NCBI GenBank assembly: GCA_018302805.1
Contig: JAGVZD010000003.1
Location: 6,538 to 70,537, forward strand
DNA length: 64,000 bases
Source of the DNA: Candidatus Woesearchaeota archaeon
GTDB taxonomy: Archaea; Nanobdellota; Nanobdellia; SCGC-AAA011-G17; JAGVZF01
Direction: 5' to 3'
The notes under the pieces: model-generated
Told to the model about the DNA's origin: nothing
What the model saw: only the letters and a program-made list of their open reading frames with translations
Databases searched by the model: none
Made by a program: the position numbers and the translations under genes
Part shown: in pieces, positions 4,936 to 51,178 of the stretch
Position numbering within the stretch: the first letter of the stretch is position 1
Layout: each line of letters begins with the position of its first letter

Positions 4936-5331
4936 TCAAATAACTTTAAGTTCCTGTATCTTACAAAAATCTTTTTTATTATTAGTTTTTATATTAAAAT
5001 TTTCAAACATTGCTGTGCTTCCAATTAATATATCCCTAAAGTCAATTTGTTCTCCTGATTTTTCTAAATCAGCTTTAATTTTTCCTGCTTTTTTGACTAT
5101 AATTGTATTAAGATTAAGGATTTTAAGTCTAGCAGTAAGTTTATCAACAGCCTCAACATTTTTTTCAATATTATTTGATAAATAGGCACCATAATAAAGT
5201 TCAAAAACATTAATTGTTGTAGATGCAAGAACAGAATCTTTTTCTCTATCCTTTATCCATTTTGATATCTCTTGTTTATTTCTTAAGAAATCAACCAAAA
5301 TATCTGTATCTAAACATATGAGATTTTCCAT
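4936..5331 (-). CDS. vapC: PIN-domain ribonuclease, VapC-like toxin
   Basis: Acidic PIN residues are present (LDTDILVDF, FELYYG, FRDIL). Length 131 aa. Its start overlaps the upstream small ORF. Confidence 0.75.
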   Translation of the reverse strand: MENLICLDTDILVDFLRNKQEISKWIKDREKDSVLASTTINVFELYYGAYLSNNIEKNVEAVDKLTARLKILNLNTIIVKKAGKIKADLEKSGEQIDFRDILIGSTAMFENFNIKTNNKKDFCKIQELKVI

Positions 5332-5558
5332 TTACTCCATCCCTTTTTGGTTTTTTCTTTAATTTCTTTCCATTCAGAATCACTCATTTTCCAACTTCCA
5401 GCTAAGTCACTTATCATAGTTTTTGGTTTTGATATTCTAATTTCGTTTAAAGCCTCATCAAATGATATTGGCTTTCCGCTTTTCTTCTGTAAATTAGCAG
5501 CTTTTTTCAATAGCCATTCATAATTCTCTTTATTTATTTTAATAGTTTTAGATTCCAT
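5310..5558 (-). CDS. Putative antitoxin partner of the PIN toxin
   Basis: 82-aa ORF that overlaps the PIN gene by 22 nt in the usual toxin-antitoxin arrangement. N-terminus KTIKINKENYEWLLKKA. Confidence 0.5.
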   Translation of the reverse strand: MESKTIKINKENYEWLLKKAANLQKKSGKPISFDEALNEIRISKPKTMISDLAGSWKMSDSEWKEIKEKTKKGWSKWKISYV

Positions 5559-5661
5559 TTTACACTTAGTAACTAAGTAACTTTTTATATTTAAATCTTT
5601 CTATTCGAGAATAATTATGTTAACAAATATTTTTTCTAAATTAGGTTAAATTATATAAAGA

Positions 5662-6423
5662 TTACTTTAATTGATTTCTTTTAGAAGCTAGTTTCCATAA
5701 ATGCTCAAAATGATCTTTGTAAGTTGTAGCGATATTTTTATTTTTAATCATTACAGCTGTAACAGGAGATCCCCAGGTAACTATAACAACTTTATCTCCA
5801 TAAACAAATGTATTAGTGGGATTAAATTCAGTTGCCTCTAAAAACCTGTATCTTGTTGTTGGGGCTGAAGCTTTATCAAATAAGAAAACTCCCTTACGTT
5901 TAGTAGTAATTACTCTTTCTATAATTTTATTTGCTTTTAAATCTCTAAAATATTGCTTCATGAAAATAGGCAATGCTTCTTGATATTTGCGATCATCAAT
6001 ACCTGTGATTAAAACTTCATTTCCTGTTTTTATTATATCTTTTAAAAAGTATTTTAGGCCTTCATTTCCTCTAAAAACTTCAACAAATGTATCTTGCCTA
6101 GGAAGTTTTGTCATAGCCTCTAATTCTGGTAAAATAGCATTGACAGAATTTTCTTGTGATTTCAATTCTCTCATTTTATCTTCTAAATATTGCTTGATTT
6201 TAGAAGGATTTGTTGCTTGAAAAAATTTCTTCGATCCCATATAAACATGTGTTACAAGTCCTTTATTCATTAACTGCTCTAGTTTATCATATACATGAAC
6301 TCGATAAATATCTGTTCTTTTTCCTATATCATAAGCTGTACTTGCTCCAGACTTAAGCAAATCAAGATATATCTTAATTTCGTTTTCTGTTAATCCAATA
6401 TTTCTGAGTGCTTCTGTATTCAT
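5662..6423 (-). CDS. TrmB-family transcriptional regulator
   Basis: N-terminal winged HTH, LGLTENEIKIYLDLLKSGASTAYDIGKRTDIYRVHVYDKLEQLMNKGLV, is typical of TrmB. Length 253 aa. Divergently oriented relative to the six-gene island. Confidence 0.8.
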   Translation of the reverse strand: MNTEALRNIGLTENEIKIYLDLLKSGASTAYDIGKRTDIYRVHVYDKLEQLMNKGLVTHVYMGSKKFFQATNPSKIKQYLEDKMRELKSQENSVNAILPELEAMTKLPRQDTFVEVFRGNEGLKYFLKDIIKTGNEVLITGIDDRKYQEALPIFMKQYFRDLKANKIIERVITTKRKGVFLFDKASAPTTRYRFLEATEFNPTNTFVYGDKVVIVTWGSPVTAVMIKNKNIATTYKDHFEHLWKLASKRNQLK

Positions 6424-6536
6424 ATATTTCTGAAAATCAAACAGGTATTTAATTTTTTCGTACTATTATAGAACGACATAATTTTATAAACTTAATATAT
6501 CGTCTCTAATAAGTAATAATTTAGAGGTAAATAAAA

Positions 6537-6935
6537 ATGGCAGAATATGAAGAAATAAGAAAATTGTACGAAACATTGAAACCTGATTGCTTTTATTGGG
6601 ATATTCCAGCAGATGACTTGTTGCAGCATAAGAGTTATCCTCTTAGTGTCCAACTACCAAGAGTATTAGAGAAGGGAGCGACTGCCCGTGTTGATTTGAC
6701 CGTATCTTTTTCTGGCGCAGAAACCCTAGAGCAGCGTATAGATAAAATTAGATCTCTAGATGTACTTCGTGACTATTTAAAAGAATGTGGGTATGGACCT
6801 TCTGGGTCTTCTGGACTCTTTGGAAGCCTTTATGAATATACAATCTTATTCCACATTCCAATAGAGTCACGAGAGGATGTGGCTGGCATGTTCAAAAATT
6901 TGAGTTTTGAAAGAAACATGAAGGAAGGTAAATAA
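6537..6935 (+). CDS. Island protein 1, unknown function
   Basis: 132 aa. Preceded by AGAGGT, an SD-like site. No TM segments and no known motif. Confidence 0.6.
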   Translation: MAEYEEIRKLYETLKPDCFYWDIPADDLLQHKSYPLSVQLPRVLEKGATARVDLTVSFSGAETLEQRIDKIRSLDVLRDYLKECGYGPSGSSGLFGSLYEYTILFHIPIESREDVAGMFKNLSFERNMKEGK

Positions 6936-6937
6936 AA

Positions 6938-7273
6938 ATGGCAAAATTAACATTAAGTCATAAATTAGGATATAAATTATCAAGAGCAGTAGATTGCGAT
7001 CTTACAGAATTAGAAAGCGCATTAGATTATTGTGCCCCACCTAGTGAAAGAAAAGGATATTGGCCTCATAACCCAGAAGTACCAGATCCAGTCGAAGCTT
7101 ACATAGCATGTTATGAAACTTTACGTGGGATAGATCCTGATACTGAAAAGACTATAGCCCAATATGTTGAAAGGGCTTTAGCAGATGAAGAAGACTCTTC
7201 AGAAATATTTGGACTAGTAAAAACATTAGCAAAATATTTACTTGAACATAAAAGTGAGGAAAAGCAAAAATGA
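6938..7273 (+). CDS. Island protein 2, unknown function
   Basis: 111 aa, acidic. Its start sits inside GGTAAATAAAAATGG, which also contains the stop codon of gene 1. Confidence 0.6.
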   Translation: MAKLTLSHKLGYKLSRAVDCDLTELESALDYCAPPSERKGYWPHNPEVPDPVEAYIACYETLRGIDPDTEKTIAQYVERALADEEDSSEIFGLVKTLAKYLLEHKSEEKQK

Positions 7274-7836
7274 AAATGGGACTTAGTTTACATCCGAGCC
7301 TTAAAATTGATTTACCAAGCTTTAGGCCATTATGTCATATAGTGAATTTGCTGGGCGGGCAAGGGAATATTGAGGCAGAAGACGTGAAATTGGCTATCGC
7401 TGATTACAAGGCCAAGCATCCTGAAGGAGGACTTGCCTATAGAGTTGAAGGTCTATTCCAACCAGACTTACAAACACCTAGTCAGGCAGTGGCGTATTGG
7501 CTTAGAAGTGTAAATCCAAATGCAATCAAGGTTGCTGCTCTATGCCTTGAAGATCAAGTTTCAGAATCTGATCCTGATGTTCTACAAGCTGCATTAACCA
7601 CAATTCTACATACACTAGAATTATACAGAGATAGCAGGTCACTTCTAGTACAGAGACGAGAATCGGTAAGAGGAAAGCGTGCTCTTGAAAAGGCTAATGA
7701 GTTGTACGAACTAATGAAAAAAGCTACAATTACAAGTGATAAAAGTTATCTTGAAAGAACCTTAACTAGTGATGCATATATTGAACCATATATGGAATAT
7801 ATGCAGGAAACACTTAGACAAATAGACAAGGACTAA
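7270..7836 (+). CDS. Island protein 3, unknown function
   Basis: 188 aa. Shares a 4-nt overlap with gene 2. SD-like GAGGA lies upstream. Confidence 0.6.
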   Translation: MKMGLSLHPSLKIDLPSFRPLCHIVNLLGGQGNIEAEDVKLAIADYKAKHPEGGLAYRVEGLFQPDLQTPSQAVAYWLRSVNPNAIKVAALCLEDQVSESDPDVLQAALTTILHTLELYRDSRSLLVQRRESVRGKRALEKANELYELMKKATITSDKSYLERTLTSDAYIEPYMEYMQETLRQIDKD

Positions 7837-7878
7837 CTATTTAGTATCTAAAGGGAAACATTTGGAGGTTTTGCTAAA

Positions 7879-8184
7879 ATGAAACGATATTACATATTTG
7901 GAAAAGATGGAAAGTATAGCTTTGGACTACTAGACTTAACACACTGTGGATTCGATGCTACACACTTTGGAAGTGACCGATACAATTGGATAGTAAGAAA
8001 ATATGATGAAAGCTGTGCACGATCTGGTTCTCTTTTGTACTGTGCGACAACTTCTACTAAATTAGAAATAGGTATGGTAGTAGACGTTATATTAGAAGCA
8101 AATAAAACTGGTACGTTGGACCTCTTGGCTTTGATTAAGAAAATAGATGATATTCATTTAAGTCCTAGAATGGTAAAAAAATGA
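7879..8184 (+). CDS. Island protein 4, unknown function (four Cys)
   Basis: 101 aa. Preceded by GGAGGT. Cysteines at HCG...SCARSGSLLYC. Confidence 0.55.
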   Translation: MKRYYIFGKDGKYSFGLLDLTHCGFDATHFGSDRYNWIVRKYDESCARSGSLLYCATTSTKLEIGMVVDVILEANKTGTLDLLALIKKIDDIHLSPRMVKK

Positions 8185-8687
8185 AAAGAAAAATAATTTT
8201 TTCCGAATACAGCCAGAATAAGCATCTCGAATCTTTTAGAGGAGAGATTGTTAGGGCAGGAGAAGATCTTTTACAAAAGTTAAAACAAATCTGCCAGCGT
8301 AATGATTTTAGATATTATTTTCACACTAATGGGACTGATATGAGCAGGGGGGGTCTTCTCGAACCTTGCTTAGCAACGATAGATGAATGGATTTTGAACG
8401 ACCCAACCGAGATACAAACACTTTCTGTTAAAATTGAGGGAAGAGAATATTCTGAGTTTGGGAATGTAGGTATAAATCTATTAGAAAGAAGTATCTCTCA
8501 TGATGAAAGTAAGTGTTATTTAAATCCTAATAATATTCTTGCTCTTGCTCCAGAATTATACACTGGAAATTGTGACCTATTTACTCTTGCTATTGATATA
8601 GCTGTATATTATAGTGAAAGAGTAAAGAAGTCTATTGAGGGATTCGCAAAACTCGATAAACTTCTCAGAGAAAAACAAAATCCATAA
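8181..8687 (+). CDS. Island protein 5, unknown function
   Basis: 168 aa. Shares a 4-nt overlap with gene 4. Confidence 0.55.
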   Translation: MKRKIIFSEYSQNKHLESFRGEIVRAGEDLLQKLKQICQRNDFRYYFHTNGTDMSRGGLLEPCLATIDEWILNDPTEIQTLSVKIEGREYSEFGNVGINLLERSISHDESKCYLNPNNILALAPELYTGNCDLFTLAIDIAVYYSERVKKSIEGFAKLDKLLREKQNP

Positions 8688-8704
8688 CTTAGAGGTAAAT
8701 AAGA

Positions 8705-9541
8705 ATGACAAAAGCAAAAATAGTTACACTAGATGAATACGTAAATGAACACTGGGGCTTAACTCCAGAACAGATGCAAGGAATAGATATTTGTGGATTT
8801 AACCACGGAGACCGACTACTGCCACGAGATGAAAGTAATACGAAAGAGAGAGTCATTTCCTATGGTGATGGTTCATTTGGTTATCACCCGGAGGGACTAC
8901 CCAGTCGAGGGCCAATAGTAAATTTCAGTACTATGCCTCTAGATTATTATTTAGATGCAATTTCACCATCATACTTTCGGAGGAGAGAAGAACTTATCAT
9001 TGAAAGAAGATACGCTATTAATATATTCATTTCTAAAGAACGTTTTACAGAAGATATTTTTGATGATTTTTGCGATGGTCTTAAAGAGGATCTTCCAGTT
9101 GAGATAAAAATGGATGACCCCACTAAAACAGATAATGATTTGAAGCATTATGGTAGAGGAGGTGGGGATGGTGGCGACTTTAGATTTCGTGACCTTGCTT
9201 CTTCCAAAACTTCGGAAACCAATCAACACCATATACACAAAGGCAAAATTAAGCAATATACCTCAGAATTTGGACATAGACACAGACTTGGTTGGATTTA
9301 CCCAAATCAGATTCAAGTATTGTGGGGTGGAAGCGCAGAATCAACTATTGGACTTATTAAATCAGTAGCAAAATTGATAAAAGAAAGAAGATATGAAGCG
9401 CATTTTGATCTCCCTATAGATCAACATGGACTCATGTATACGGGCTTTGGCATAACGGGAGTTTTTTACAAGCCAAAAGAAATGAGGAACAAATTTAAGA
9501 TCACAGAGCAAATCCAAAGGGAAGAATATTACAACTATTAA
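8705..9541 (+). CDS. Island protein 6, unknown function (Gly/His-rich central loop)
   Basis: 278 aa. Preceded by AGAGGTAAATAAGAATG. Central segment GRGGGDGGDFRFRD...NQHHIHKGK. Confidence 0.6.
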   Translation: MTKAKIVTLDEYVNEHWGLTPEQMQGIDICGFNHGDRLLPRDESNTKERVISYGDGSFGYHPEGLPSRGPIVNFSTMPLDYYLDAISPSYFRRREELIIERRYAINIFISKERFTEDIFDDFCDGLKEDLPVEIKMDDPTKTDNDLKHYGRGGGDGGDFRFRDLASSKTSETNQHHIHKGKIKQYTSEFGHRHRLGWIYPNQIQVLWGGSAESTIGLIKSVAKLIKERRYEAHFDLPIDQHGLMYTGFGITGVFYKPKEMRNKFKITEQIQREEYYNY

Positions 9542-9609
9542 GTGTTTTTGCCCATATTGATTCTTAGTCAATGCAAAATATTTAAATACATAAATACAAA
9601 ATAAAATAT

Positions 9610-11040
9610 ATGAATTATAAAGACTTAGGGTTTAAGTGTGGTATCGAAGTTCATCAACGTTTACAATCACATAAGTTATTTTGTAATTGCCCTTCAATTT
9701 TAAGAGATGATACTCCAGATATTACTATAAAAAGAAAACTAAGAGCTGTTGCAGGAGAAACTGGAAATATAGACATTGCAGCAAAACATGCTATGGAAAA
9801 ATCCCAAGAATTTATTTATGAATTCTACACAGATACCAATTGCCTCGTAGAAATTGACGACGAACCTCCACATAAATTAAACGAGGATGCATTAAACATT
9901 GCATTAGAGATTGCCTTACTTTTGAAATGTGAAATAGTTGAAGATATTAATTTTATGAGAAAAACAATAATTGATGGAAGTAATACAACAGGATTCCAGA
10001 GAACTGCCTTAGTAGCAAGAAATGGCTTTATTGAAACTTCTAGAGGGGATGTAAGAATAGAATCAATTTACCTAGAAGAGGAATCAGCAAAGAATGTAAG
10101 AGAATCTATTGATAACAGGACTTGGAGGTTAGACAGATTAGGAATTCCTTTAGTAGAAATACAAACTTATACAGATATTCTTGATGAAAAACATGCAAAA
10201 GAAACAGCTGAGAAAATTGGCATGATTTTGAGAAGCACAGATAAAGTTATGCGTGGGATAGGTAGTATTAGGCAAGATGTTAATGTTTCTATCACAGGAC
10301 ATCCGAGAGTTGAAATAAAAGGATTTCAAGATATCAGATTAATTGAAATTGTAATTAAAAAAGAAGTGGAAAGACAACTAAATTCAATAAATACAAAAAA
10401 GGATCTGCTGGGCCATGTTAGAAATGTAAAACCAGATGGATCAACTGAATTTTTAAGACCTCTTCCAGGAGCATCGAGAATGTATCCAGAAACAGATGTT
10501 CCAATTTTTCTGATTTCCAAACAAAGAATTAAATCATTAATCCTACCAGAAATTATAACAGAAAAAATCTTGAGGTTTGAAAGTCAGTATAAATTAAGTC
10601 CTGAAATTTCTTCTTTAATTGTTAAGGAGAATCCATCGCTTTTTGAAAATTTTGCTAATAAATTTAGAAATCTTGATCCTTCTCTGATTGCAAAAACAAT
10701 GACTTTAACATTAAGCGATTTAAAATCAAGATACAATTTAGAAATTTCCAAGCTGAATGATGAAGACTTGAAAGAATTATTTTCATTGGTAAATTCTAAG
10801 AAAATATATCAAAGTTTAATTAGTCAATACTTAAAAGATAAAATTGAAGGCAATAAAATAGATTTAAGTAATTATAAGGTTATGGATGATATAGAATTAG
10901 AAAAAATGATAATTGAGATAATTAAACAAAATAAAAATTCATCAATAAATGCTTTAATGGGTATAATCATGGATAAAATAAAAGGCAAAGCCAATGGCAA
11001 AAAGGTTATGGAATTGCTCAGAAAACATTATATAAATTGA
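9610..11040 (+). CDS. GatB/GatE-family tRNA-dependent amidotransferase subunit (GatE-like N-terminus, GatB-like length)
   Basis: N-terminus DLGFKCGIEVHQRLQSHKLFCNCPS matches the GatE-type cradle. C-terminus has a YqeY-like tail (GKANGKKVMELLRKH). Length 476 aa. Confidence 0.7.
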   Translation: MNYKDLGFKCGIEVHQRLQSHKLFCNCPSILRDDTPDITIKRKLRAVAGETGNIDIAAKHAMEKSQEFIYEFYTDTNCLVEIDDEPPHKLNEDALNIALEIALLLKCEIVEDINFMRKTIIDGSNTTGFQRTALVARNGFIETSRGDVRIESIYLEEESAKNVRESIDNRTWRLDRLGIPLVEIQTYTDILDEKHAKETAEKIGMILRSTDKVMRGIGSIRQDVNVSITGHPRVEIKGFQDIRLIEIVIKKEVERQLNSINTKKDLLGHVRNVKPDGSTEFLRPLPGASRMYPETDVPIFLISKQRIKSLILPEIITEKILRFESQYKLSPEISSLIVKENPSLFENFANKFRNLDPSLIAKTMTLTLSDLKSRYNLEISKLNDEDLKELFSLVNSKKIYQSLISQYLKDKIEGNKIDLSNYKVMDDIELEKMIIEIIKQNKNSSINALMGIIMDKIKGKANGKKVMELLRKHYIN

Positions 11041-12500
11041 TGAAATATTTTCGAAAACTATTTAAAATACATAATTACTTAGAAAGCCCGATGGATGATA
11101 TAGTTAGATTTGCTCTTAAACAATTAGAAAAAAGTAATGTTCAATATGCAGAAGTCAGATATGTTCATTCTACTAATAATGGTATTATTATTAAAAATCA
11201 AATTCCACAAATAGGTACATTCGAAGAAAATGAAGGAATTGGAATAAGATATTTATTGAATAATGCCATAGGATTTTTATCAATTAATCAGCTGGATAAA
11301 AATAAGATTAAAGAATTACTTGATAGAAGTGTAAGAAAAATTAATACTAATAAAAAAATCAATGAAAAAATTAGCTTAGCTTCTGATAAAACCTATATAG
11401 AAAATTATGAAGTTAAACAGAAAATAAAAATTGCAAATGTTGACTTTTCTGAAAAAACCAAGCTTCTCTTAGATGCAGAAAAAGAAATGCGATCTCAAAA
11501 TGTCAAGATTTCAGGTAGTTATATTGCCCTGGGAGATTCAGTAACAACTCAGTATTTTGAAAATACAGAAGGAACAAAAATAAAAAGTATTATCCCCAAA
11601 ATTTCATTTTGGTACCAAATTGGAATAATAGAAAATAATGAAATAATGCAAAGATATTGGCCTTGGGGTGCTTCAGGAGGCTTTGAAATAGTAAAGAATT
11701 GGGATATCCCAAATATACTTGTTGAAGAAGTTAAAACTATGTCTTTAAATCTAAAAAAAGGTGTTTCTCCTCCAAAAGGGGAAGTAGATCTAGTTGTAGC
11801 CCCACAAGTCGTAGGTATTATGTGTCATGAAAGCGTTGGGCATCCATATGAAGCCGACCGTATCTTAGGAAGAGAGGCAGCTCAAGCAGGAGAAAGTTTT
11901 GTAACAAAAGAATTGTTAAACACAAGAATTGGAAGCGATGCAGTTACTGTTACAGATGATCCAACAATTGAAAACAGCTTTGGATTCTATAAATATGATG
12001 ACGAAGGAGTCAAAGCTAGAAAAAGAATTCTCATAAAAAATGGATTAATCAATGAATTCTTGCAAAACAGAGAAACAGCTTTTAATTTCAATATTAAAAG
12101 TAATGGCAGTGCAAGGGCAACAGATTTTGATAAAGAACCATTAATTAGAATGGGAAATACCATTCTTGAAAAAGGTGATTATAAAGAAGAAGAATTATTT
12201 GAAGATATCAAAAAAGGAGTTTATATCAAAAATTTCATGGAATGGAATATAGATGATAAAAGATTTAATCAGAAATATGTAGGGGCTGATGCTTTTTTGA
12301 TAGAACATGGTAAAATCACTAATCCGGTTATAAAACCAATAATAGAAATTACAACACCAAAGTTATGGAGTTCAGTAGATGCGGCAGCAAACAATATGGA
12401 ATATCATGCTGGAAGCTGCGGAAAAGGAGAACCTATGCAAGCATGTCCTGTTTGGTTCGGTGGCCCTTCCATGCGGATAAGAAAGATAAGATTAGGTTAA
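11037..12500 (+). CDS. tldD: TldD-family metalloprotease
   Basis: Carries CHESVGHPYEADRILGRE, the HExxxH signature of TldD. Length 487 aa. Shares a 4-nt overlap with the upstream gene. Confidence 0.85.
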   Translation: MMKYFRKLFKIHNYLESPMDDIVRFALKQLEKSNVQYAEVRYVHSTNNGIIIKNQIPQIGTFEENEGIGIRYLLNNAIGFLSINQLDKNKIKELLDRSVRKINTNKKINEKISLASDKTYIENYEVKQKIKIANVDFSEKTKLLLDAEKEMRSQNVKISGSYIALGDSVTTQYFENTEGTKIKSIIPKISFWYQIGIIENNEIMQRYWPWGASGGFEIVKNWDIPNILVEEVKTMSLNLKKGVSPPKGEVDLVVAPQVVGIMCHESVGHPYEADRILGREAAQAGESFVTKELLNTRIGSDAVTVTDDPTIENSFGFYKYDDEGVKARKRILIKNGLINEFLQNRETAFNFNIKSNGSARATDFDKEPLIRMGNTILEKGDYKEEELFEDIKKGVYIKNFMEWNIDDKRFNQKYVGADAFLIEHGKITNPVIKPIIEITTPKLWSSVDAAANNMEYHAGSCGKGEPMQACPVWFGGPSMRIRKIRLG

Positions 12501-41875: not shown

Positions 41876-42505
41876 GTGGGGGTAATTATGAAAAAAAGGT
41901 GGATAATAATCTTAGCTATAGGTATAACATTAAGTCTCACACTGATATTTTCCAAGTTTATTAATTCTCCAACAGAAGAAATCCATTATAATGGAAAGGA
42001 TATAGAAGTTAATTCTGAGACAATTGCTTCAGATGATATTGAAAAGGAATATCAACAATCAAAAAATCTTGGGTTTAGTAATTTAGAAGTATCAAAAGAT
42101 GATATAGCAAACTCCCTCATAAATGAAAAATTACTTCTTCAAAGAGCAGATAAAATCGGAATAATAGTATCTGATGAAGAGCAGGAAAATACTTTTAATA
42201 ATTTTTTAACAAATTCTAAATTATCTGAAGAAGAACTTAATACACAGCTTGAATCAACAGGATCCAATTTGGAAGAATTTAAACTTGAATTAAAAAATTA
42301 TTTAATAATATCAAAATTGATTGATAAAGAAGTTAAACCAAATGAAATTACATTAAGTGATAAAGAATTTAATGAGCTGACGCAAGATGACCTAGATCTT
42401 CAAAATGTTAAATTCCTAATTGAAGATGAACTAATAATCCAGAAAAAACAAGAAGCTATTGATAATTATATTGAAAAATTAAGAAACGGAGCTGATATTA
42501 ATTAA
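41876..42505 (+). CDS. Secreted or membrane-anchored protein (SurA-N-like helical region)
   Basis: N-terminal TM (WIIILAIGITLSLTLIF). Length 209 aa. Acidic. Confidence 0.35.
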   Translation: MGVIMKKRWIIILAIGITLSLTLIFSKFINSPTEEIHYNGKDIEVNSETIASDDIEKEYQQSKNLGFSNLEVSKDDIANSLINEKLLLQRADKIGIIVSDEEQENTFNNFLTNSKLSEEELNTQLESTGSNLEEFKLELKNYLIISKLIDKEVKPNEITLSDKEFNELTQDDLDLQNVKFLIEDELIIQKKQEAIDNYIEKLRNGADIN

Positions 42506-42743
42506 ACTTTTACCTATTAAAAGAGTTGAATTTATACTTATCTTGATATTACTATTTCTCAACTTTGCTGTTTCTTTTATTCCGCTACAAAAACATTTCG
42601 TTAAGCATTGCATGCATAGAAAACCAGCCACTCGAAGGGCCAAAAATGGTCGGAGAGACAGGCTTCTAAGTTATGAACGTCACAAACATTATAGGAAATC
42701 TAACCACGTCACGACTGGTATCGGTATTAGTGGGGCCGGCCTG

Positions 42744-45700
42744 ATGAATAGGAGAAATGGGATGAGGAATATTTGGATGTTGGGAGTGATATTTGTAGCT
42801 TTATTAGGGTTTTCCCAAGTTGTATGGGCATTAGAACCTTGGGAAATGAAAAAAGAACATATTGGGGTTATTATAGATTCAGGACATGCATTATATGGAA
42901 CCAATGATCCAGATAGTGCTAATGCTAATAGTCAAAACTTTCTTAGATATGATACAAAGAACGCAAAAGGAAAAACTAGAGGAAGATCTTGTATTGATCC
43001 TTCATTAATACCGTCTAATGACATTGATGACACTTGCGGTAAATACCTAAGATTTAATAATTTAAATAGGGTTGTAACTAGAATACAAAATGACTATGTG
43101 GAACCAGAAGGAATGGTTTTTTTTAGCCGTGGTTTACAAGACATACTAAAAACCAATAATATTGCATCTGAAAATACCAGAGATCTTTCTACCCCATTAG
43201 ATGTAATGTTGGGAAATCCTTTCAGAATAGATGCTGTAACATTTAAATTCACTACTAATGAAGATGATGAAACAATCGTTCCGCTATTTATCTATAATCC
43301 CAATACAGTCCTTAGTATTCCACAAATAAATTTACAAGTAACTGTTACTATTACACCAAGTAGAGATGCAATGTCGATTACAGTTTCTCAGCAGAATTCA
43401 GGTGTTATTTATCAGCAAAATATTAATCAAAATACTCCTCAAAACGAGTTTAATAGAGTATTAGCAATCTCAGTCCCTAACCTTCCCTTTCTAAATATTC
43501 AAAGTCCCCCTGGAGTTGAGATCGATAGATTAGAGTCAATAGTAGAACCGATTAATAATATTCACATAAACTATGAAATAGAAACTGATGATTACTGGTT
43601 AGGCGTCAGACGTTCGAATATCGAAAATGATTGGAGACACGGAGCAGTAACATATTTATGTGAAATGCGGGATCCTTCGTTCTGCCCTTTATCGTCATCG
43701 AACCCAACAGACCCCAGTGATGAAAATTTAATAAGAGAATTATTTGGTGAGGAGGTACAGGACAATGATAGAGAAAAGGATTGGATATTGATAAGTTACC
43801 ATTCGAATTCGGGGGGGAATTCTGATACAAGAGGTTTATTTTCATCACGCCCTAATTTTAAGAGAGATGTTCAAATTGGTTCAAGTGATCAAGTCATAAG
43901 TTGTCATAATTTTTTAGAACCTCAAAATAATATCAACGGTGACCCAAGTCGTAAAAATGATCTATTAACACTTTCAAAAGCACGTTTTACCCAATTTTTA
44001 GCTGATGCCATTGTATCAGAAATCCAGAGAAATAACATAAATTGGCCACAACGTGGAAGAATTATTGATGAAGCTGTCTGCGATAAGGAAGGAGCAGTCA
44101 TCTTATCAGGTAGTATACCTTCTTCAATTATTGAACTTACTTTTCATGATAACATCAATAGCCTTAACACGTTACTAGCATATAATAAAATTAATGAAAA
44201 GAATATTGTAGCTCAAGGAACATTCGAAGGCATCAAAAAATTCTTCAATGCTAATGTGGAAAGTACTGATGATCAAGGTCAAAATTGGGATGTTTTCAAT
44301 ATGATCTCTGATTACCCTAATATTGATGATGTTTGGGCTAAAGGTACCGGGTTTCCAAAAAATCATAATATCAGACTTAATGTTGTGCGACACAAGAATT
44401 ATAATACCGATTATACAAGGGGGGAAGATATAAAAAAAATAGCAGTTAATTCTCAAGAAAATGCTGCTAAAATAGGAATTATAACTGACAATTTTGGGAA
44501 TTTCGGTCCTGTAAAAGTCTGGACTCCAACAATGGAAGGTGAATTTGATATCGTTGCTAAAATATATGATTATGAAAAATTTCAGTGGGTTGATGCTGTA
44601 GACAGTATGGAACTAGGTTCGGACGGCAAAAGCAAACCGGGTTTTGAAGTTATGAAATGCGGTAGTATTTGCAGTTATATCTATAGTTCTGATGAATCAA
44701 GTGCTCTAAAAACAAACTTTTTCACAAATGAAAAAGTTTATGCTGCATTCGCACTTGAGAATGATGGCAATGAAGAAGTCCAAGCAAAAATATTTGTTAT
44801 AAAAAATGAAGTAGCTGAGGCTGGTCCTTCATGGCAAAATTTAGCAGACCAAAGTTCTGACGGTCCTGAAGAAATAACAATACCCGCAGGTGTTGGACAA
44901 GTTGAAAGCGGTAAACAGGTTGTATGGTTACCCCCTCTAACTGAAGGCGTGTACAGACTCGTTGTTGACTTAAATAACAACGGATTGTTTGATTCTGCTG
45001 ACAGAATGGCTGCTGATCCTTTTACAGTACGTAATATAATTACACAGCTTGATGCGGATGTAGATCCAGAAGGCAATGTTCATGTTATTGGAATTGCAGA
45101 AAACACAAATTCCAACCCACCACCAATAATTGCAACAAGATTAATGTATGCAAGAATTCCTCATGACTCTAATTATAAGATAGATCTCGAACATCCAGAA
45201 TTATTTGATTGGAGTGTAGCAAAAGAAGTAAAATTTACAGAAATCCCAAGAACACCCGCAAGAATTTCAAATCCTAAGATTGCTGTTGATATGAATGGCG
45301 AACCGTATATTATTTGGGAAAGGCAAACTGCAGATAATAAATGGCTTCAATGGACAAAGTTAACTAAGGATGGTTTAATAGATACCCAATTCTTTTTTGT
45401 TATCAAAAAACAGCAATCTGAAGGTACTCTGGGAGAACCACACCAACTTTTTGAAAATGTTTTCCTTGCTGAAGGTGGATTACTTAATATATCTTCATTT
45501 AGGAGTTCAATAAACGTAAGTGAATCAGTAGCTGTTGCTCCAATAATATTTTATAGATCCCAACCATTTGTGGAATATGATCTAAGAGAGCCAGATATTG
45601 CAATAGATCCACAAGATAATAGGCCAATTATAACAGCTATCATAAATGCAAAAGCTCCATCAACTTTATTTATGCAAAAGATTCTTCCAATTCTATCACT

Positions 45701-48700
45701 AGGTATTAATCCAAACTTTTTCATATACCCATCAGGCACATTTTCTCAAGGTTTTAACCTAATTAATGAAGCAATAATCCCACCTCTATATTTTGCTGAA
45801 AGTGTACAGGTAGCAAAACTTATTGGAACTGAACTTGGTGTTTTTTCATTTGGTTGGCCAAGTGATTATACTCCTGGTGGTGTGAGATATGGACAAGATG
45901 TAGCAGTATTTACCGATACCATGAATGATATTGCAGACCTTGTTAATGATATGGCAATTCCTAGTGAACGTTCCGATCACTGGAAGTGGAGACATTTGGA
46001 TAGTGCAAGTTTACGTACTAATTTTGATATGTTTTCAAATCCACAAATAGAAGTGGATACTCTTAGTAATCTACATGTTATTTATCACAAAGGTTCATCG
46101 ATATTTGTAGGTGCTACAGGAGATGTTTGGGATCCTGATAATCCAAACCACCTCAACTTTGCACCAATTTTAAGAGAAATGGATGTCTTTGTCAATAATT
46201 CTTTTAGCGTAGTCATGTATAAAAAAGTTCCAATTACATCACAGGATCTACCATCAAATTTTAACATGATTAAAATTCCTCAAGCAGGATCAGATCCAAT
46301 TCAAGTGTCCCTAGAAGCATCTCAGGTTAAACCAAATTCTATTGACTTGGCAATTGATTCTGATGGAGAAAGCCACATTGTTTGGCAATCAAATAATAAA
46401 TTGAAATATACAAAGAGTCCAGATTTTGAAGATAATAATGTATCCCAAATTTTGTCTGCAGAATTAGGAATTTCAAAAATTATTATAGATACAAAAAATA
46501 ATCCAATAGTTTTATGGAATGATAAATTAGGTCTTGAAGAGAAATTATTATTAAAAAAAGTTCTAACCATCAATAGAACTGCAAGTTTTAGTCATACAGA
46601 AGAGATTGCAAGTTCTACTAATATCAGAAATCCCCTGTTAGCTATAAATTCTATTTCCAATAATAACACTGGGGCTAATAGAATATATTCTCTTTGGATA
46701 AATTCAAATGATGTTGGTTCTAGAGTATTACTCAAAAGGACAATGCCACATACAACTATTTTACTCATTTTAGATGGTTTTAATAGCTCTGTATTCTATG
46801 ATAATCTAAATTCTATGGATATTTTGAAAGATCTCATCGAAAATAATCCAACAGTTAATGGATCTGCTGTTATTCCAAGTCCTTTCCAAACATTTTCATC
46901 ACAAGCTTCTCTTATAACAGCATTGCAACCTGAAAATCATGGTATTCTGGGGGATAATTTCACAAGAGGCGATGGTCAGAATATATCATATATTCCTGAT
47001 AACTCACATGATGTTAATCAAGATCTCAATGTAAGTACAATATATGATTTTCTCAGCACGCACAATAGGAGTAAAGCAGTAATCGCAAGTATAATTACAA
47101 AAGGGGTGGGAGGTCAATTAAACGATAAAATCATACCTCCAACGACAATAGATTGGAATTCCGGTTCAAATAATGCAGAAGATTCTATTAATTCTTATTT
47201 TAATATTTTGAATACCAATGATCAAAATACCTCAAATGATCCAGCAGAATTAATAACTGTTTATGTGTTGAAAAATACACACAATCAGATATCTGATTAT
47301 GCTTCTTATGCAGCAAATGTCGATGATACTATAGGCCTTCTAATAGATAAACTCCAAAACATGAAGATGTTTAACGATACTGTTTTGATTATTACCTCAG
47401 ACCACGGTGAAAGTGGCAATATAAACGATACATTAGTACCTATTATAATTACTGGTCCTGGACTTAATTATTTCAGTGCGCAAGGACAAAGTTTTGAAAT
47501 AGAAGAAAATATCGATATAACAGATATCGGAACAACAACAACATTTTTCGTAGCTGGTAAAAGTTTAGTTGATTCAATGGTTGGCGTTGACGGTCAAAAC
47601 TTATTTGATCCTCAACTCTCCTTTACTGCTGAATCTCCTGTTAGATTGCACTTATACGATGAAGAAGGTAATCATGTAGGCCCCAAAGCAAATAATATCG
47701 AGACTGAAATCCCTCTTTCCTATTACACAGAAGATCCAGAAACTGATGCCAAGGAAATTATTTTACTTCAAGCTCCAGAAAAATATAGATTCGAACTGGA
47801 ATCATATGCTGAAGGGCCAGTTCATTTATCATTAAGGCATTCTAAATTAGGACAAAAAATTTTAATAGAATATCCTGAATTTATTATTGTTAATCATTCA
47901 AGAGGTAAAATCGATGCCATAAATGATGATTTTATCTTGGTATTAGACAAAGATAATAACGGTATTTTTGAAGAGACAATTGAACCTTCAACATCATTAC
48001 AAATTAATCAGAGGAACAATTCAGCAACAATAGATATTCTTAATCTCGAATTAAGAGAACCTATTGAAGTTGATGTTGTAGATAATACTAACGCAAAAAT
48101 AATTTTAGAAGCCTATGAAGAAATTTCCAATGAAAATATACAGATTGAAAAATTAAACTTCATAGAATCAAATGGTTTAATTACTGACAATGTGTTTGGA
48201 GTAGATTTTGCAATTAACATTTCTATGAGTTCTAATATATTAGCTAATACTAGTAGTGAATTAGCAATAGTAATACCAGAAGATATAATTAAAAATAAAG
48301 GTATAGCTAAATATTCTTTGTCCATATTTGAACTTGTCTCAAATGAAAGTATTAATCTTAATTTTAGCGAAGAATCTGAGGCAATAATAATTGTAGATGG
48401 AAATGATGTTTATGTTGATACTTTTGCATTTTTTGATGACAAAACAAACATTTTAACTACAGGAATTTCCGGTCCAGGAACTTTCGTAATACTTGCAACA
48501 GATAAAATACCATCAATTACTGACATTATTATAAATCCAGCAAAAACTTCAATTAGCACTTCAAATATTTCTGTTACATCTTCTGTAATAGACAATCAAG
48601 CTGTATCAAATGTTAGTATAATGTTCAATGGCAATACAATTGAAATGCAACATCTTGGTGGCTCCCAGTATACAGCAACACTTATTGGTCCAACCCAATC

Positions 48701-51173: not shown

Positions 51174-51178
51174 TTAAA

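What the first reader, a model, noticed from the sequence alone, without database searches (positions are those of the whole stretch)
6520..9545. Six-gene operon of foreign composition encoding six proteins with no recognisable motifs
The six ORFs are tightly packed and translationally coupled (132, 111, 188, 101, 168 and 278 aa). They overlap or abut at 6935/6938, 7270/7273 and 8181/8184. GC is about 40% against about 28% in the flanking archaeal genes, and codon and amino-acid usage is less K/I/N-rich. All six have bacterial-type Shine-Dalgarno sites, whereas the neighbouring archaeal genes (msrA, msrB, tldD, radical SAM and others) have none. I can find no Walker A, HExxH, nuclease or TM signature in any of them, so this is not a module I recognise. 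It sits directly beside a VapBC toxin-antitoxin pair and is divergent from a TrmB regulator, a typical accessory or defence-island context. Candidate roles are a novel defence or anti-phage system, a virus- or plasmid-derived cassette, or a regulatory module.
Basis: partly seen in the sequence, partly recalled or inferred. Interest (0 to 1): 0.8.

Follow-up and report, generated by a model that had tools for sequence, protein, structure and literature searches.

The report
Orphan operon beside conserved archaeal regulator
Six tightly packed genes of unknown function in a tiny groundwater archaeon (Woesearchaeota) are a mosaic accessory operon, not a foreign bacterial block: it sits in a swappable slot next to a highly conserved TrmBL2-type regulator and its invariant DNA operator, and what the six proteins do remains unknown.

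Summary
The six ORFs (6537-9541, + strand) are real, co-directional and coupled. Every profile library returns nothing for them, and NCBI calls them hypothetical proteins of a Candidatus Woesearchaeota MAG. The compositional claim was overstated. GC is 36.3% against 30.3%, not 40 against 28. Shine-Dalgarno sites precede 5 of 6 genes, and 7 of 47 native genes also have them.

The block is not a conserved six-gene unit. Only g6 (278 aa) recurs, with about 14 relatives among billions of proteins, all apparently Woesearchaeota. It is always the last gene and is paired with either a g1-like or a g2-like partner. g5 recurs without g6. No relatives were found for g3 or g4.

Every g6 locus with enough upstream sequence lies divergent from the same TrmBL2-like regulator. 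That regulator is 70-82% identical across at least 120 clusters. Between two TATA boxes it carries an invariant palindrome, TCGTAC-N7-GTACGA. In other genomes the same regulator and operator face different cargo.

Best reading: a conditionally expressed accessory operon occupying a regulator-anchored cargo slot and exchanged among Woesearchaeota. Its biochemical function is unknown. Known defence systems, a viral or plasmid origin, and a defence-island context are not supported.

The parts
5662..6423 (-). TrmBL2-type transcription regulator (253 aa, pI 9.6). It has a wHTH domain, a long coiled-coil helix and a PLD/Nuc-like C-terminal domain. This gene is the conserved anchor of the locus.
6446..6453 (-). 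TATA-like box of the regulator's own promoter, about 23 nt upstream of its ATG. This spacing predicts a leaderless mRNA.
   Evidence: TATTTAAT/TTTAAAG is nearly invariant at the same position in 12 loci. Function is inferred from archaeal promoter geometry and was not tested.
6458..6476 (.). Palindromic operator TCGTAC-N7-GAACGA (consensus TTTCGTAC-N7-GTACGACA), lying between the two divergent TATA boxes.
   Evidence: Present in 12 of 12 distinct loci. It lies 33-34 nt from the regulator ATG in 11 of them and 43 nt in L010. The block is invariant in alignments A4 and A5, while the rest of the spacer is unconserved. There is a single copy in the 64-kb window and exactly one per locus in 343 kb of fetched DNA, always at this promoter.
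6482..6491 (+). TATA-like box of the cargo operon promoter (TTTTATAAAC). It predicts a short leader of about 20-25 nt that carries the SD.
   Evidence: A TATA-like element at a fixed distance after the palindrome is nearly invariant in all 12 loci, whatever the cargo. The transcription start is inferred.
6537..6935 (+). g1, 132 aa, acidic and soluble. It belongs to a small family that is the upstream partner of g6 in other Woesearchaeota.
   Evidence: 32-34% identity to the gene immediately upstream of, and overlapping, the g6 homologue in L010/L013/L014, L011 and L015. SD GAGGT at 6524-6528. No family or PDB match.
6938..7273 (+). g2, 111 aa, acidic. It is an alternative upstream partner of g6 in other genomes.
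   Evidence: 62-65% identity to the first cargo gene in L008/L009 and L016. No family or PDB match.
7270..7836 (+). g3, 188 aa. No relative found.
   Evidence: ATGA overlap with g2. GC1>GC2>GC3 is typical of coding sequence. No hit in the profile libraries, PDB, viral, phage or plasmid collections, or any fetched locus. The large-database search that covered it failed technically.
7879..8184 (+). g4, 101 aa, the only basic protein of the six (pI 8.8). No relative found.
   Evidence: Strong SD GGAGGT. The only lead is an insignificant alignment to the MNT nucleotidyltransferase core (E 0.26-0.36) in which the catalytic residues are replaced.
8181..8687 (+). g5, 168 aa. It belongs to a family that occupies the same regulator slot in another Woesearchaeote that has no g6.
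   Evidence: 33% identity over 161 aa (E 1e-22) to the first divergent gene next to the orthologous regulator in L022/L023 (alignment). It has no SD and starts by an ATGA overlap with g4.
8705..9541 (+). g6, 278 aa. It is the recurrent terminal gene of this cargo type. It is a novel alpha/beta protein with conserved motifs TLDEY, YGR-G-rich-FRFR, RHRLGWxYPNQIQ, YEAHFD and GVFYKPK.
9545..9549 (+). Oligo-T tract 3 nt after the g6 stop codon, a candidate archaeal transcription termination signal.
   Evidence: Read directly from the sequence. No bacterial-type hairpin terminator is present in 5400-9800. Function is inferred.

Best explanation
**What it is.** The six genes are the cargo operon of a regulator-anchored variable slot in a Candidatus Woesearchaeota (DPANN archaeon) genome.

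The constant part of the slot has four pieces:
- a very conserved TrmBL2-type regulator gene (5662-6423, - strand);
- its TATA box;
- an invariant palindromic operator, TCGTAC-N7-GTACGA (6458-6476);
- a second, outward-facing TATA box (6482-6491).

Downstream of that second promoter, different Woesearchaeota carry different operons.

**The cargo in this genome is a mosaic.** g6 is the recurrent terminal gene of one rare cargo type. g1 and g2 are its two alternative small acidic partners, both present here. g5 is a gene found in another genome's slot without g6. g3 and g4 have no relatives found.

**Proposed mechanism (inferred, not shown).**
1. A dimer of the regulator binds the palindrome.
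2. The palindrome abuts or overlaps the BRE positions of both divergent promoters, so binding represses the regulator's own leaderless transcript and the cargo transcript together.
3. On release, a short-leadered polycistronic mRNA is made.
4. Strong GAGGT-type SD sites and ATGA start/stop overlaps couple translation, giving roughly stoichiometric amounts of six soluble cytoplasmic proteins.
5. g6 probably acts in complex with g1 and/or g2.

The module (cargo alone, or regulator plus cargo) is exchanged among Woesearchaeota. The highly conserved regulator gene may serve as a homology arm for that exchange.

The biochemical activity of g1-g6 is unknown. My ranking is a conditionally expressed accessory function first (conflict or stress type, or small-molecule enzymology), with no known family applicable.
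For: **Shown**
- The ORFs and their coupling.
- The organism, and 'hypothetical' annotation for all seven genes.
- g6 is very rare.
- Cargo architectures:
  - window: g1-g2-g3-g4-g5-g6;
  - L008/L009: g2'-g6';
  - L010/L013/L014, L011, L015: g1'-g6' with ATGA overlap;
  - L016: g2'-244 aa-g6';
  - L017: 112 aa-distant g6.
- g5 matches the L022 179-aa gene, E 1e-22.
- All 7 independent g6 lineages with upstream sequence are divergent from the same regulator, at 70-81% identity.
- The regulator is far more widespread than g6: at least 278 clusters, and the 120 listed are 70-82% identical.
  - rSAM-like + DUF6190 + DHDPS + ELFV dehydrogenase in two genomes;
  - g5' + a 170-aa gene;
  - DUF3865 + HAD + HIT;
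  - a 92-aa gene.
- The operator is invariant in 12 of 12 loci at a fixed distance, with TATA-like boxes on both sides, and conservation stops after the cargo-side TATA.
- There is one operator per locus in 343 kb.
- Regulator fold is TrmBL2-like. Y45-D46 are invariant.
- Family precedent: palindromic operators at BRE/TATA, and repression by blocking recruitment of the transcription machinery (PMC4158304).
- Exchange:
  - regulator and g6 pairwise identities are uncorrelated (r = -0.39);
  - L017's regulator is 81% identical to the window's but its g6 is only 29% identical;
  - in L008 a sharp GC trough (33-41% against 50-55%) covers exactly regulator + cargo;
  - in the window, the cargo is 36.3% GC while the regulator is 29.3%, close to the rest of the window.
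- SD enrichment is 5/6 against 7/47, p = 0.0015. SD sites also sit on homologous operons elsewhere.
- All six proteins are soluble, and five are acidic.
Against: - No expression, binding or interaction data exist. Repression, transcription start sites, co-transcription and complex formation are all inferred.
- The operator could serve only the regulator's autoregulation, with the neighbouring gene being incidental.
- Only five non-g6 regulator loci were sampled, so cargo diversity and frequencies are rough.
- TrmBL2 in Thermococcales binds DNA largely non-specifically as a chromatin protein (PMC4158304). A sequence-specific operator model is therefore an extrapolation from other TrmB members.
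- g3 and g4 could have relatives that I missed, because the only large-database search covering them failed technically.
- The distant g6 relative in L018 is not next to this regulator. The linkage is therefore not absolute.
- No recombination junctions or mobile-element borders were found.
Confidence: 0.6

Rival explanations
1. A novel conflict system (toxin-antitoxin-like or anti-virus defence). Its core would be a small acidic partner (g1 or g2, antitoxin- or sensor-like) translationally coupled to a larger effector (g6). g3-g5 would be add-on modules.
For: - The two-gene cores g1'+g6' overlap by ATGA.
- Unrelated partner families (g1, g2, the L017 112-aa gene) pair with the same downstream family. 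This mix-and-match pattern is familiar from TA systems (general knowledge).
- The distribution is extremely patchy.
- g6 diverges fast relative to the neighbouring regulator.
- There are signs of lateral transfer.
- A VapBC-like pair is adjacent in the window.
Against: - No PADLOC hit for any of the six genes or for the neighbours.
- No nuclease, NTPase, HEPN or TM signature was found.
- g6 is acidic.
- The context is housekeeping.
- Other cargo in the same slot looks enzymatic.
- The g4/MNT and g5/HEPN leads failed.
Confidence: 0.2
2. A small-molecule metabolic or biosynthetic operon. g6 would be an enzyme built on an AdoMetDC-like alpha/beta sandwich, possibly pyruvoyl-dependent through the conserved GDG-S57-FG motif. 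g1-g5 would be accessory subunits. The regulator would respond to a metabolite.
For: - Recognisable cargo in other copies of the slot are enzymes: radical-SAM-like, DHDPS, amino-acid dehydrogenase, DUF3865 di-iron/haem-oxygenase-like, HAD, HIT.
- TrmB-family regulators classically control metabolism (PMC4158304).
- g6 has several invariant polar residues: D10, E11, C123, N201, E227, E231, plus H233 and K256.
Against: - The fold similarity is domain-level, weak and shared with many unrelated ferredoxin-like domains.
- The Ser57 motif lies in a low-confidence region and is absent from the distant branch P0012-P0014.
- No cofactor or substrate-binding motif was found.
- The regulator lacks the sugar-binding subdomain.
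- The partners g1 and g2 are interchangeable and unrelated, which is unusual for enzyme subunits.
Confidence: 0.15
3. A recently acquired foreign cassette, derived from bacteria, a virus or a plasmid, inserted as one block next to an unrelated regulator.
For: - GC is 6 points above background at all three codon positions in most of the genes.
- Amino-acid usage is atypical.
- SD sites are enriched.
Against: - All identified homologues of g1, g2, g5 and g6 lie in Woesearchaeota-type contigs and in the same regulator slot.
- tblastn against 50,697 phage and 72,556 plasmid records found nothing. The four genes scanned against IMG/VR (g3-g6) also found nothing.
- There is no integrase, tRNA or flanking repeat.
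- The region is not the most GC-deviant part of the window.
- SD sites occur on homologous operons in other Woesearchaeota and on native genes.
Confidence: 0.05
4. Adjacency without regulation. The palindrome serves only autoregulation of a conserved chromatin-type regulator. The flank next to it is merely a recombination hotspot where unrelated genes accumulate, so the six genes have their own independent expression logic.
For: - The operator sits at a fixed distance from the regulator's ATG in all loci.
- TrmBL2 proteins are general chromatin proteins and global repressors (PMC4158304).
- The cargo is functionally heterogeneous.
- In L026 the divergent flank quickly runs into core genes.
Against: - A TATA-like box facing the cargo is conserved at a fixed distance on the far side of the palindrome in all 12 loci.
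- There is no alternative promoter-sized spacer upstream of g1.
- The g6 family lies next to this regulator in 7 of 7 lineages, even though every other neighbour differs.
Confidence: 0.15

Closest known systems
TrmBL2 (PF0496 / TK0471), the chromatin protein and global repressor of Thermococcales, TrmB family
   Same: - Same architecture and similar length: 253 aa against 264 aa.
- It has an N-terminal wHTH with the recognition-helix Tyr-Asp, a long coiled-coil helix, and a C-terminal PLD-like domain without the sugar-binding subdomain.
- Like TrmBL2, it is the most conserved member of its family within its lineage (PMC4158304).
- It is basic, with pI 9.6.
   Different: - Only 19% identity to TrmBL2 in the structural alignment.
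- There is no sequence-level PDB hit to TrmBL2. The only hit is to the N-terminus of TrmB 3qph.
- It is associated with a specific, invariant palindromic operator at its own bidirectional promoter. TrmBL2 is described as binding coding and intergenic DNA broadly (PMC4158304).
- The lineage is DPANN, not Thermococcales.
P. furiosus / T. litoralis TrmB with the trehalose/maltose (TM) gene cluster
   Same: - A TrmB-family regulator encoded beside the operon it controls.
- A palindromic operator at the BRE/TATA of the first cargo gene, with repression by blocking recruitment of the transcription machinery.
- The regulator and its cargo are reported to have spread by horizontal transfer (PMC4158304).
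   Different: - The operator sequence differs: TACT-N3-AGTA against TCGTAC-N7-GTACGA.
- Canonical TrmB has a sugar-binding effector domain, which is absent here.
- The cargo here is not a transporter or sugar-enzyme set but unknown soluble proteins.
- Here the cargo varies between genomes while the regulator and operator stay constant.
Type II toxin-antitoxin modules with mix-and-match partners (for example HEPN-MNT, VapBC)
   Same: - Small upstream gene overlapping a larger downstream gene.
- Unrelated upstream partner families pair with one downstream family.
- Patchy distribution and lateral mobility.
   Different: - No recognisable toxin or antitoxin fold or motif.
- No DNA-binding domain in the small partners.
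- Regulation appears to come from a separate, highly conserved regulator rather than from an antitoxin.
S-adenosylmethionine decarboxylase-like alpha-beta-beta-alpha sandwich (AdoMetDC; N-domain of spermine synthase)
   Different: - Only about 100 residues align, at 5-13% identity, with TM 0.27.
- Many unrelated ferredoxin-like domains score similarly.
- The processing-site serine is not conserved across the g6 superfamily.

Membership tests
TrmB family of archaeal transcription regulators (for the gene at 5662-6423) | N-terminal winged helix-turn-helix DNA-binding domain of the TrmB type (PF01978) | tested here: met
   Pfam PF01978, E 6.3e-17, 61.6 bits against a cut-off of 25.6. phmmer hit to TrmB 3qph, residues 4-119, E 2.6e-7.
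TrmB family of archaeal transcription regulators (for the gene at 5662-6423) | Conserved Tyr-Asp in the recognition helix (Y50/D51 of P. furiosus TrmB; PMC4158304) | tested here: met
   Y45 and D46 are invariant in 40 orthologues. The positional equivalence to Y50/D51 was judged by eye from the motif VYDxL, not from a structure superposition.
TrmB family of archaeal transcription regulators (for the gene at 5662-6423) | Amphipathic coiled-coil dimerisation helix after the wHTH | tested here: met
   The AF2 model has a continuous helix at residues 75-104 with pLDDT above 90.
TrmB family of archaeal transcription regulators (for the gene at 5662-6423) | Complete C-terminal sugar-binding effector domain (both subdomains, as in TrmB and TrmBL1) | tested here: not met
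TrmB family of archaeal transcription regulators (for the gene at 5662-6423) | Binds a palindromic inverted repeat at or near the BRE/TATA of target promoters | not testable with these tools
   A candidate site is conserved in 12 of 12 loci between two TATA-like boxes. Binding itself needs EMSA or footprinting.
Known anti-phage defence systems (PADLOC-DB v2) | At least one protein matching a model of a known or candidate defence system | tested here: not met
   No hit at E<=1 for g1-g6. The neighbours give only generic wHTH and radical-SAM matches.
HEPN-MNT toxin-antitoxin (considered for g4-g5) | MNT: nucleotidyltransferase motif G-S ... D-x-D | tested here: not met
   In the only alignment (8xeo, E 0.26-0.36), g4 has C-A in place of G-S and V-x-D in place of D-x-D.
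HEPN-MNT toxin-antitoxin (considered for g4-g5) | HEPN: Rx4-6H motif in an all-helical domain | tested here: not met
   g5 has no Rx4-6H. Its conserved R103...H107 is Rx3H. The g5 profile finds no HEPN protein in the PDB. The g4-g5 pairing is not conserved, because L022 has g5' without g4.
Pyruvoyl-dependent AdoMetDC-like enzymes (considered for g6) | AdoMetDC alpha-beta-beta-alpha sandwich fold | tested here: inconclusive
Pyruvoyl-dependent AdoMetDC-like enzymes (considered for g6) | Conserved self-processing serine that generates the pyruvoyl group | tested here: not met
   S57 (GDGSFG) is invariant only in the close branch. The motif is absent in P0012 and P0013 and differs in P0014.
Integron-like gene cassette array (considered for the variable slot) | Site-specific recombinase and attC-like repeats at cassette boundaries | tested here: not met
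   The anchor gene is a regulator, not a recombinase. Intergenic gaps are 0-42 nt with no inverted-repeat sites. The only repeated element is the translation-initiation region.
Horizontally acquired genomic island | Deviant composition together with island borders (tRNA, integrase, direct repeats) | tested here: inconclusive
   Composition is modestly deviant in the window and strongly deviant for regulator + cargo in L008. There is no tRNA, integrase or flanking repeat.

The most novel reading that the evidence does not exclude
Woesearchaeota use the bidirectional promoter of a near-invariant TrmBL2-like regulator as a docking site for expression. Accessory operons are swapped into it by homologous recombination, with the conserved regulator gene as the homology arm. 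The g6-centred cassettes (g6 plus interchangeable g1- or g2-type partners, with add-ons g3-g5) would be a previously unknown conflict or host-interaction system of these episymbiotic archaea, built on a protein fold with no solved relative.
Probability: 0.2. Interest if true: 0.75.

Novelty: new variant of a known kind. Interest (0 to 1): 0.5.

Why it matters
DPANN archaea such as Woesearchaeota have tiny genomes. Most of their lineage-specific genes are uncharacterised, and almost nothing is known about how they regulate or exchange accessory functions.

This locus gives a concrete, testable handle:
- a regulator that is 70-82% identical across the lineage;
- an invariant 19-bp operator;
- a neighbouring position where cargo differs from genome to genome.

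If the regulator really controls whatever sits in that slot, it would define a lineage-wide conditional-expression site. It would also give a simple way to find the accessory gene pool of these organisms: look next to the operator.

The g6 family and its interchangeable partners are protein families without any annotated or structural relative. They are candidates for new biology, but at present nothing indicates what they do.

For the scan itself, the lesson is that compositional oddity and SD sites were over-read. The informative signal was the conserved regulator and operator next door.

Tried and rejected
1. **Concatenated g1-g5 query.** I put g1-g5 into one query for the 5.8e9-protein search. 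The result is uninformative and one capped search was wasted. 'No relatives' for g3 and g4 therefore rests on weaker searches.
2. **g2/g3 paralogy.** Similar N-termini suggested this. hhalign gave probability 0.7%.
3. **L017 112-aa gene as a divergent g2.** hhalign gave probability 0.1%.
4. **g1 related to the C-terminal half of g6.** Weak BLAST hits suggested this. hhalign gave probability 0.2%.
5. **HEPN-MNT reading of g4-g5.** The catalytic motifs are absent and no HEPN protein was hit.
6. **Rx4-6H motifs.**
   - In g6 the arginine is not conserved in the family.
   - In g2, R38...H44 is invariant, but in only three sequences and within a proline-rich loop. I did not pursue it.
7. **Pyruvoyl enzyme via Ser57.** The serine is not conserved in the distant branch.
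8. **Viral or plasmid origin.** No matches.
9. **Mobile-element borders or integron-like repeats.** None found.
10. **Bacterial sigma-70 promoters and hairpin terminators.** Not above chance: 15 against 18.6 expected for promoters, and 0 terminators.
11. **Population dN/dS.** The Rifle population is clonal at this locus, with one synonymous SNP in 3.9 kb over seven samples.
12. **Foldseek against AFDB50.** The library was unavailable.
13. **Structure prediction of g1 with its homologue alignment.** g1-g5 therefore have no structural models.
14. **Rfam and tRNA scans of the window.** Nothing found.
15. **Literature.** No paper on this regulator or these proteins in Woesearchaeota or DPANN.

Full report
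**1. What is in the sequence**

The six + strand ORFs exist exactly as described: g1 6537-6935 (132 aa), g2 6938-7273 (111), g3 7270-7836 (188), g4 7879-8184 (101), g5 8181-8687 (168) and g6 8705-9541 (278). The g1/g2 junction has a 2-nt gap. The g2/g3 and g4/g5 junctions are ATGA overlaps. The other two gaps are 42 and 17 nt. An oligo-T tract follows the g6 stop codon.

None of the six matches any model at a meaningful level in Pfam, NCBIfam, PADLOC or PHROGs. None has a TM segment, a Walker A motif or an HExxH motif. Five are acidic and g4 is basic.

Exact-sequence look-ups place the window in a Candidatus Woesearchaeota MAG (locus tags J4471_00730 to J4471_00760), and NCBI labels all seven genes hypothetical. 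The identical locus occurs in at least 24 contigs from Rifle aquifer metagenomes. That population is clonal here, with one synonymous SNP in 3.9 kb across seven samples.

**2. The compositional and SD claims**

GC is 36.3% for 6537-9541 against 30.3% for the rest of the window. The region ranks 24th of 610 overlapping 3-kb windows, and the GC-richest stretch is at about 53 kb, inside a giant ORF.

Across 38 other genes, GC1/GC2/GC3 average 0.39/0.29/0.19, with a GC3 standard deviation of 0.033. The six genes have GC3 values of 0.30, 0.13, 0.27, 0.25, 0.24 and 0.27, together with higher GC1 and GC2. They use fewer I, N, K and F residues and more R, E, D, Y and H. The deviation is therefore real but modest, and much of it reflects amino-acid composition.

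SD-like motifs (GAGGT, GGAAGGT, GTGAGG, GGAGGT, GAGGT) precede five of the six genes; g5 has none. That compares with 7 of 47 other genes (Fisher p = 0.0015). Native genes thus use SD sites too. The homologous operons in other Woesearchaeota also carry them. GAGGT pairs with the archaeal 16S 3' end as well (general knowledge), so the sites are not evidence of a bacterial origin.

The surrounding genes are housekeeping: msrB, msrA, an epimerase, a GatB/E-type amidotransferase, TldD/PmbA, translin, SRP54 and RIO kinase. There is one PIN/VapC gene with a small upstream partner and no PADLOC defence component.

**3. The block is a mosaic, not a conserved six-gene system**

g6 has 11 homologues (45-75% identity) among 5.8e9 proteins. 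A full HMMER profile search of 1.8e9 representatives added only three distant full-length relatives. One GTDB species representative carries it, a Candidatus Woesearchaeota MAG. Four further metagenome loci were found, and none in IMG/VR.

Reading the contexts gives these arrangements:
- L008/L009: regulator | g2' g6'.
- L010/L013/L014, L011 and L015: regulator | g1' g6'. The small gene overlaps g6' by ATGA.
- L016: regulator | g2', an unrelated 244-aa gene, g6'.
- L017: regulator | an unrelated 112-aa gene and a distant g6 (29-36% identity).

g1 and g2 are unrelated to each other and to g6. In the minimal loci they are mutually exclusive, whereas the window has both.

g5 has a homologue (33% identity over 161 aa, E 1e-22). 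It is the first gene divergent from the orthologous regulator in L022/L023, a different Rifle Woesearchaeote that has no g6.

g3 and g4 matched nothing in any fetched locus, in the PDB, or in the phage, plasmid and viral collections. The one large-database search that covered them failed technically, so their orphan status is provisional.

**4. The constant feature is next door**

Every g6 locus with enough upstream sequence lies divergent from the same TrmB-family gene. That covers seven independent lineages, on contigs ranging from 33% to 51% GC. The regulators are 70-81% identical to the window's 5662-6423. Identity of this gene between loci is uncorrelated with g6 identity (r = -0.39). L017 has the closest regulator (81%) and the most distant g6 (29%).

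The regulator is far more widespread than g6. At least 278 clusters pass E<=1e-40, and all 120 listed are 70-82% identical and, where named, come from Woesearchaeota/Nanoarchaeota.

The divergent neighbour differs:
- in two genomes (L020, L027), a radical-SAM-like protein, DUF6190, DHDPS and an ELFV-type dehydrogenase;
- in L022, g5' and a 170-aa gene;
- in L024, a DUF3865/haem-oxygenase-like protein with HAD and HIT proteins;
- in L026, a 92-aa protein.

The gene on the other side of the regulator is also different in every locus.

**5. A conserved operator and bidirectional promoter**

In all 12 distinct loci the spacer contains TTTCGTAC-N7-G(T/A)(A/G)CGACA. In the window this is TCGTACTATTATAGAACGA at 6458-6476. 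It lies 33-34 nt from the regulator's ATG in 11 loci and 43 nt in L010, which has a 9-nt insertion.

On the regulator side there is a near-invariant TTTAAA-type box about 23 nt from the ATG, which predicts a leaderless mRNA. On the cargo side a TATA-like box sits at a fixed distance (6482-6491 in the window). Beyond that box the sequences are unrelated.

The motif occurs once in the 64-kb window (by chance, 23 of 100 shuffles give at least one match at two mismatches). It occurs exactly once per locus in 343 kb of fetched DNA, always at this promoter. The significance comes from its cross-locus invariance and fixed position, not from the single-window count.

**6. What the regulator is**

Pfam TrmB matches residues 6-73. 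Residues 4-119 match P. furiosus TrmB 3qph. An AF2 model from 40 orthologues has pLDDT 88.4.

According to that review:
- TrmB-family proteins bind palindromic inverted repeats at BRE/TATA or at the transcription start;
- they repress by blocking recruitment of the transcription machinery;
- TrmBL2 lacks the sugar-binding part;
- TrmBL2 is the most conserved family member in Thermococcales and acts as a chromosomal protein and global repressor.

The Woesearchaeota protein therefore has TrmBL2 architecture and TrmBL2-like conservation. Unlike what is described for TrmBL2, it also carries a specific conserved operator at its own promoter.

**7. Evidence of exchange**

In L008, a GC trough of 33-41% against 50-55% flanks covers exactly regulator + g2' + g6' (8750-10850), between rpoH and rpS11. 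In the window the cargo is GC-richer than the genome, while the regulator is close to the rest of the window (29.3%, GC3 0.17). In L013, L016 and L017 both match their flanks.

Together with the incongruent identities, this indicates that the cargo, and sometimes regulator plus cargo, has moved between Woesearchaeota. No tRNA, integrase or flanking repeats mark the borders.

The only notable repeat is the translation-initiation region shared by g1, g2 and g6 (6516-6545, 6926-6955 and 8684-8713; 77-87% identity over 30 nt). These three are the genes with g6-linked homologues elsewhere. Whether this reflects selection for one ribosome-binding site or a scar of assembly is open.

**8. What g6 might be**

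The AF2 model (12 sequences, pLDDT 75.8, pTM 0.78) is an alpha/beta protein.

Residues invariant across the whole superfamily include D10, E11, T76, C123, N201, E227 and E231, with H233 and K256 nearly invariant. I recognise no known catalytic signature in this set. The candidate processing serine (S57) is not conserved in the distant branch.

**9. Interpretation**

*Shown.* A real, coupled operon. A mosaic gene content. Strict linkage of the g6 family to one highly conserved TrmBL2-type regulator. An invariant operator flanked by two TATA-like boxes. Different cargo at the same position in other genomes. Compositional and phylogenetic signs of exchange.

*Inferred.* The regulator binds the palindrome and co-represses itself and the cargo. 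The cargo is transcribed as one short-leadered mRNA and translated in coupled fashion. g6 works with g1 and/or g2.

*Unknown.* The biochemical role.

Rival readings:
- A conflict-type role (TA-like or defence) fits the patchiness, partner swapping and fast divergence. It has no positive molecular evidence.
- A small-molecule enzyme role fits the weak fold hit and the enzymatic cargo elsewhere, and is equally unproven.
- A bacterial, viral or plasmid origin is not supported.

**10. Novelty and score**

The regulatory architecture, a TrmB-family regulator divergent from the operon it probably controls, is a known kind. What appears undescribed is:
- the near-invariance of the regulator and operator across a DPANN lineage, combined with variable cargo;
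- the g1, g2, g5 and g6 protein families themselves.

I rate it a new variant of a known kind, with interest 0.5. It is a solid lead for archaeal and DPANN specialists, and it has a clear experimental handle.

Noticed in passing
window 42483-51173 and 51089-64000 (+ strand): Two tandem giant ORFs. One is 2876-2896 aa. The other is open-ended and at least 4304 aa, running off the window; it starts with a hydrophobic segment followed by LamG/concanavalin-like-looking sequence. Together they exceed 7000 aa and are the GC-richest part of the window (up to 38-39%). They are probably giant surface proteins of the DPANN cell.
   Followed up: no
window 4936-5331 and 5310-5558 (- strand): A PIN-domain (VapC-like) gene with an overlapping upstream 82-aa partner that has no Pfam match, lying immediately downstream of the regulator gene. 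This is the only toxin-antitoxin-like element near the operon. No PADLOC hit.
   Followed up: partly
L008 8750-10850: A sharp GC trough (33-41% against 50-55% flanks) covers exactly the regulator + g2' + g6' module, which is inserted between rpoH and rpS11 in a roughly 50% GC Woesearchaeota MAG. A second low-GC patch lies at about 11300-11900, around a MazE-like gene.
   Followed up: partly
L020 1536-4901 and L027 1583-4901 (- strand): A four-gene set recurs divergent from the same regulator and operator in two different Woesearchaeota: a radical-SAM-like protein with a Cx8CxxC motif (328-340 aa), DUF6190, DHDPS and an ELFV-type amino-acid dehydrogenase. The radical-SAM-like proteins are 40% identical. 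It may be the commonest cargo of the slot and looks like a small biosynthetic pathway.
   Followed up: partly
window 6516-6545, 6926-6955, 8684-8713: g1, g2 and g6 share a nearly identical translation-initiation region, (ATAAyT)TAGAGGTAAATAArAATGrCAnAA, including the first codons. g3, g4 and g5 have different initiation regions.
   Followed up: partly
L013 11252-12010 and L027 8671-9384: Second, distant TrmB-family paralogues lie a few kb from the conserved regulator in other Woesearchaeota. The L013 paralogue is about 27% identical to the window's regulator. In L027 the paralogue is identified only by its Pfam TrmB annotation.
   Followed up: no
L008 1-1351; L020 5799-8765; L022 785-3415: Intein-containing core genes in the related contigs: an RNA polymerase subunit A'' fragment with an intein/LAGLIDADG domain, RtcB with an intein, and an 876-aa intein/LAGLIDADG protein.
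   Followed up: no
window 1-64000: No tRNA gene and no Rfam family at gathering threshold anywhere in the 64 kb.
   Followed up: yes
window 7879-8184 (g4 residues 49-94): A weak, statistically insignificant alignment to the core of an MNT minimal nucleotidyltransferase (PDB 8xeo, E 0.26-0.36). The strand-loop-strand pattern is preserved but the catalytic residues are replaced. This could be a degenerate NTase-like fold or chance.
   Followed up: partly
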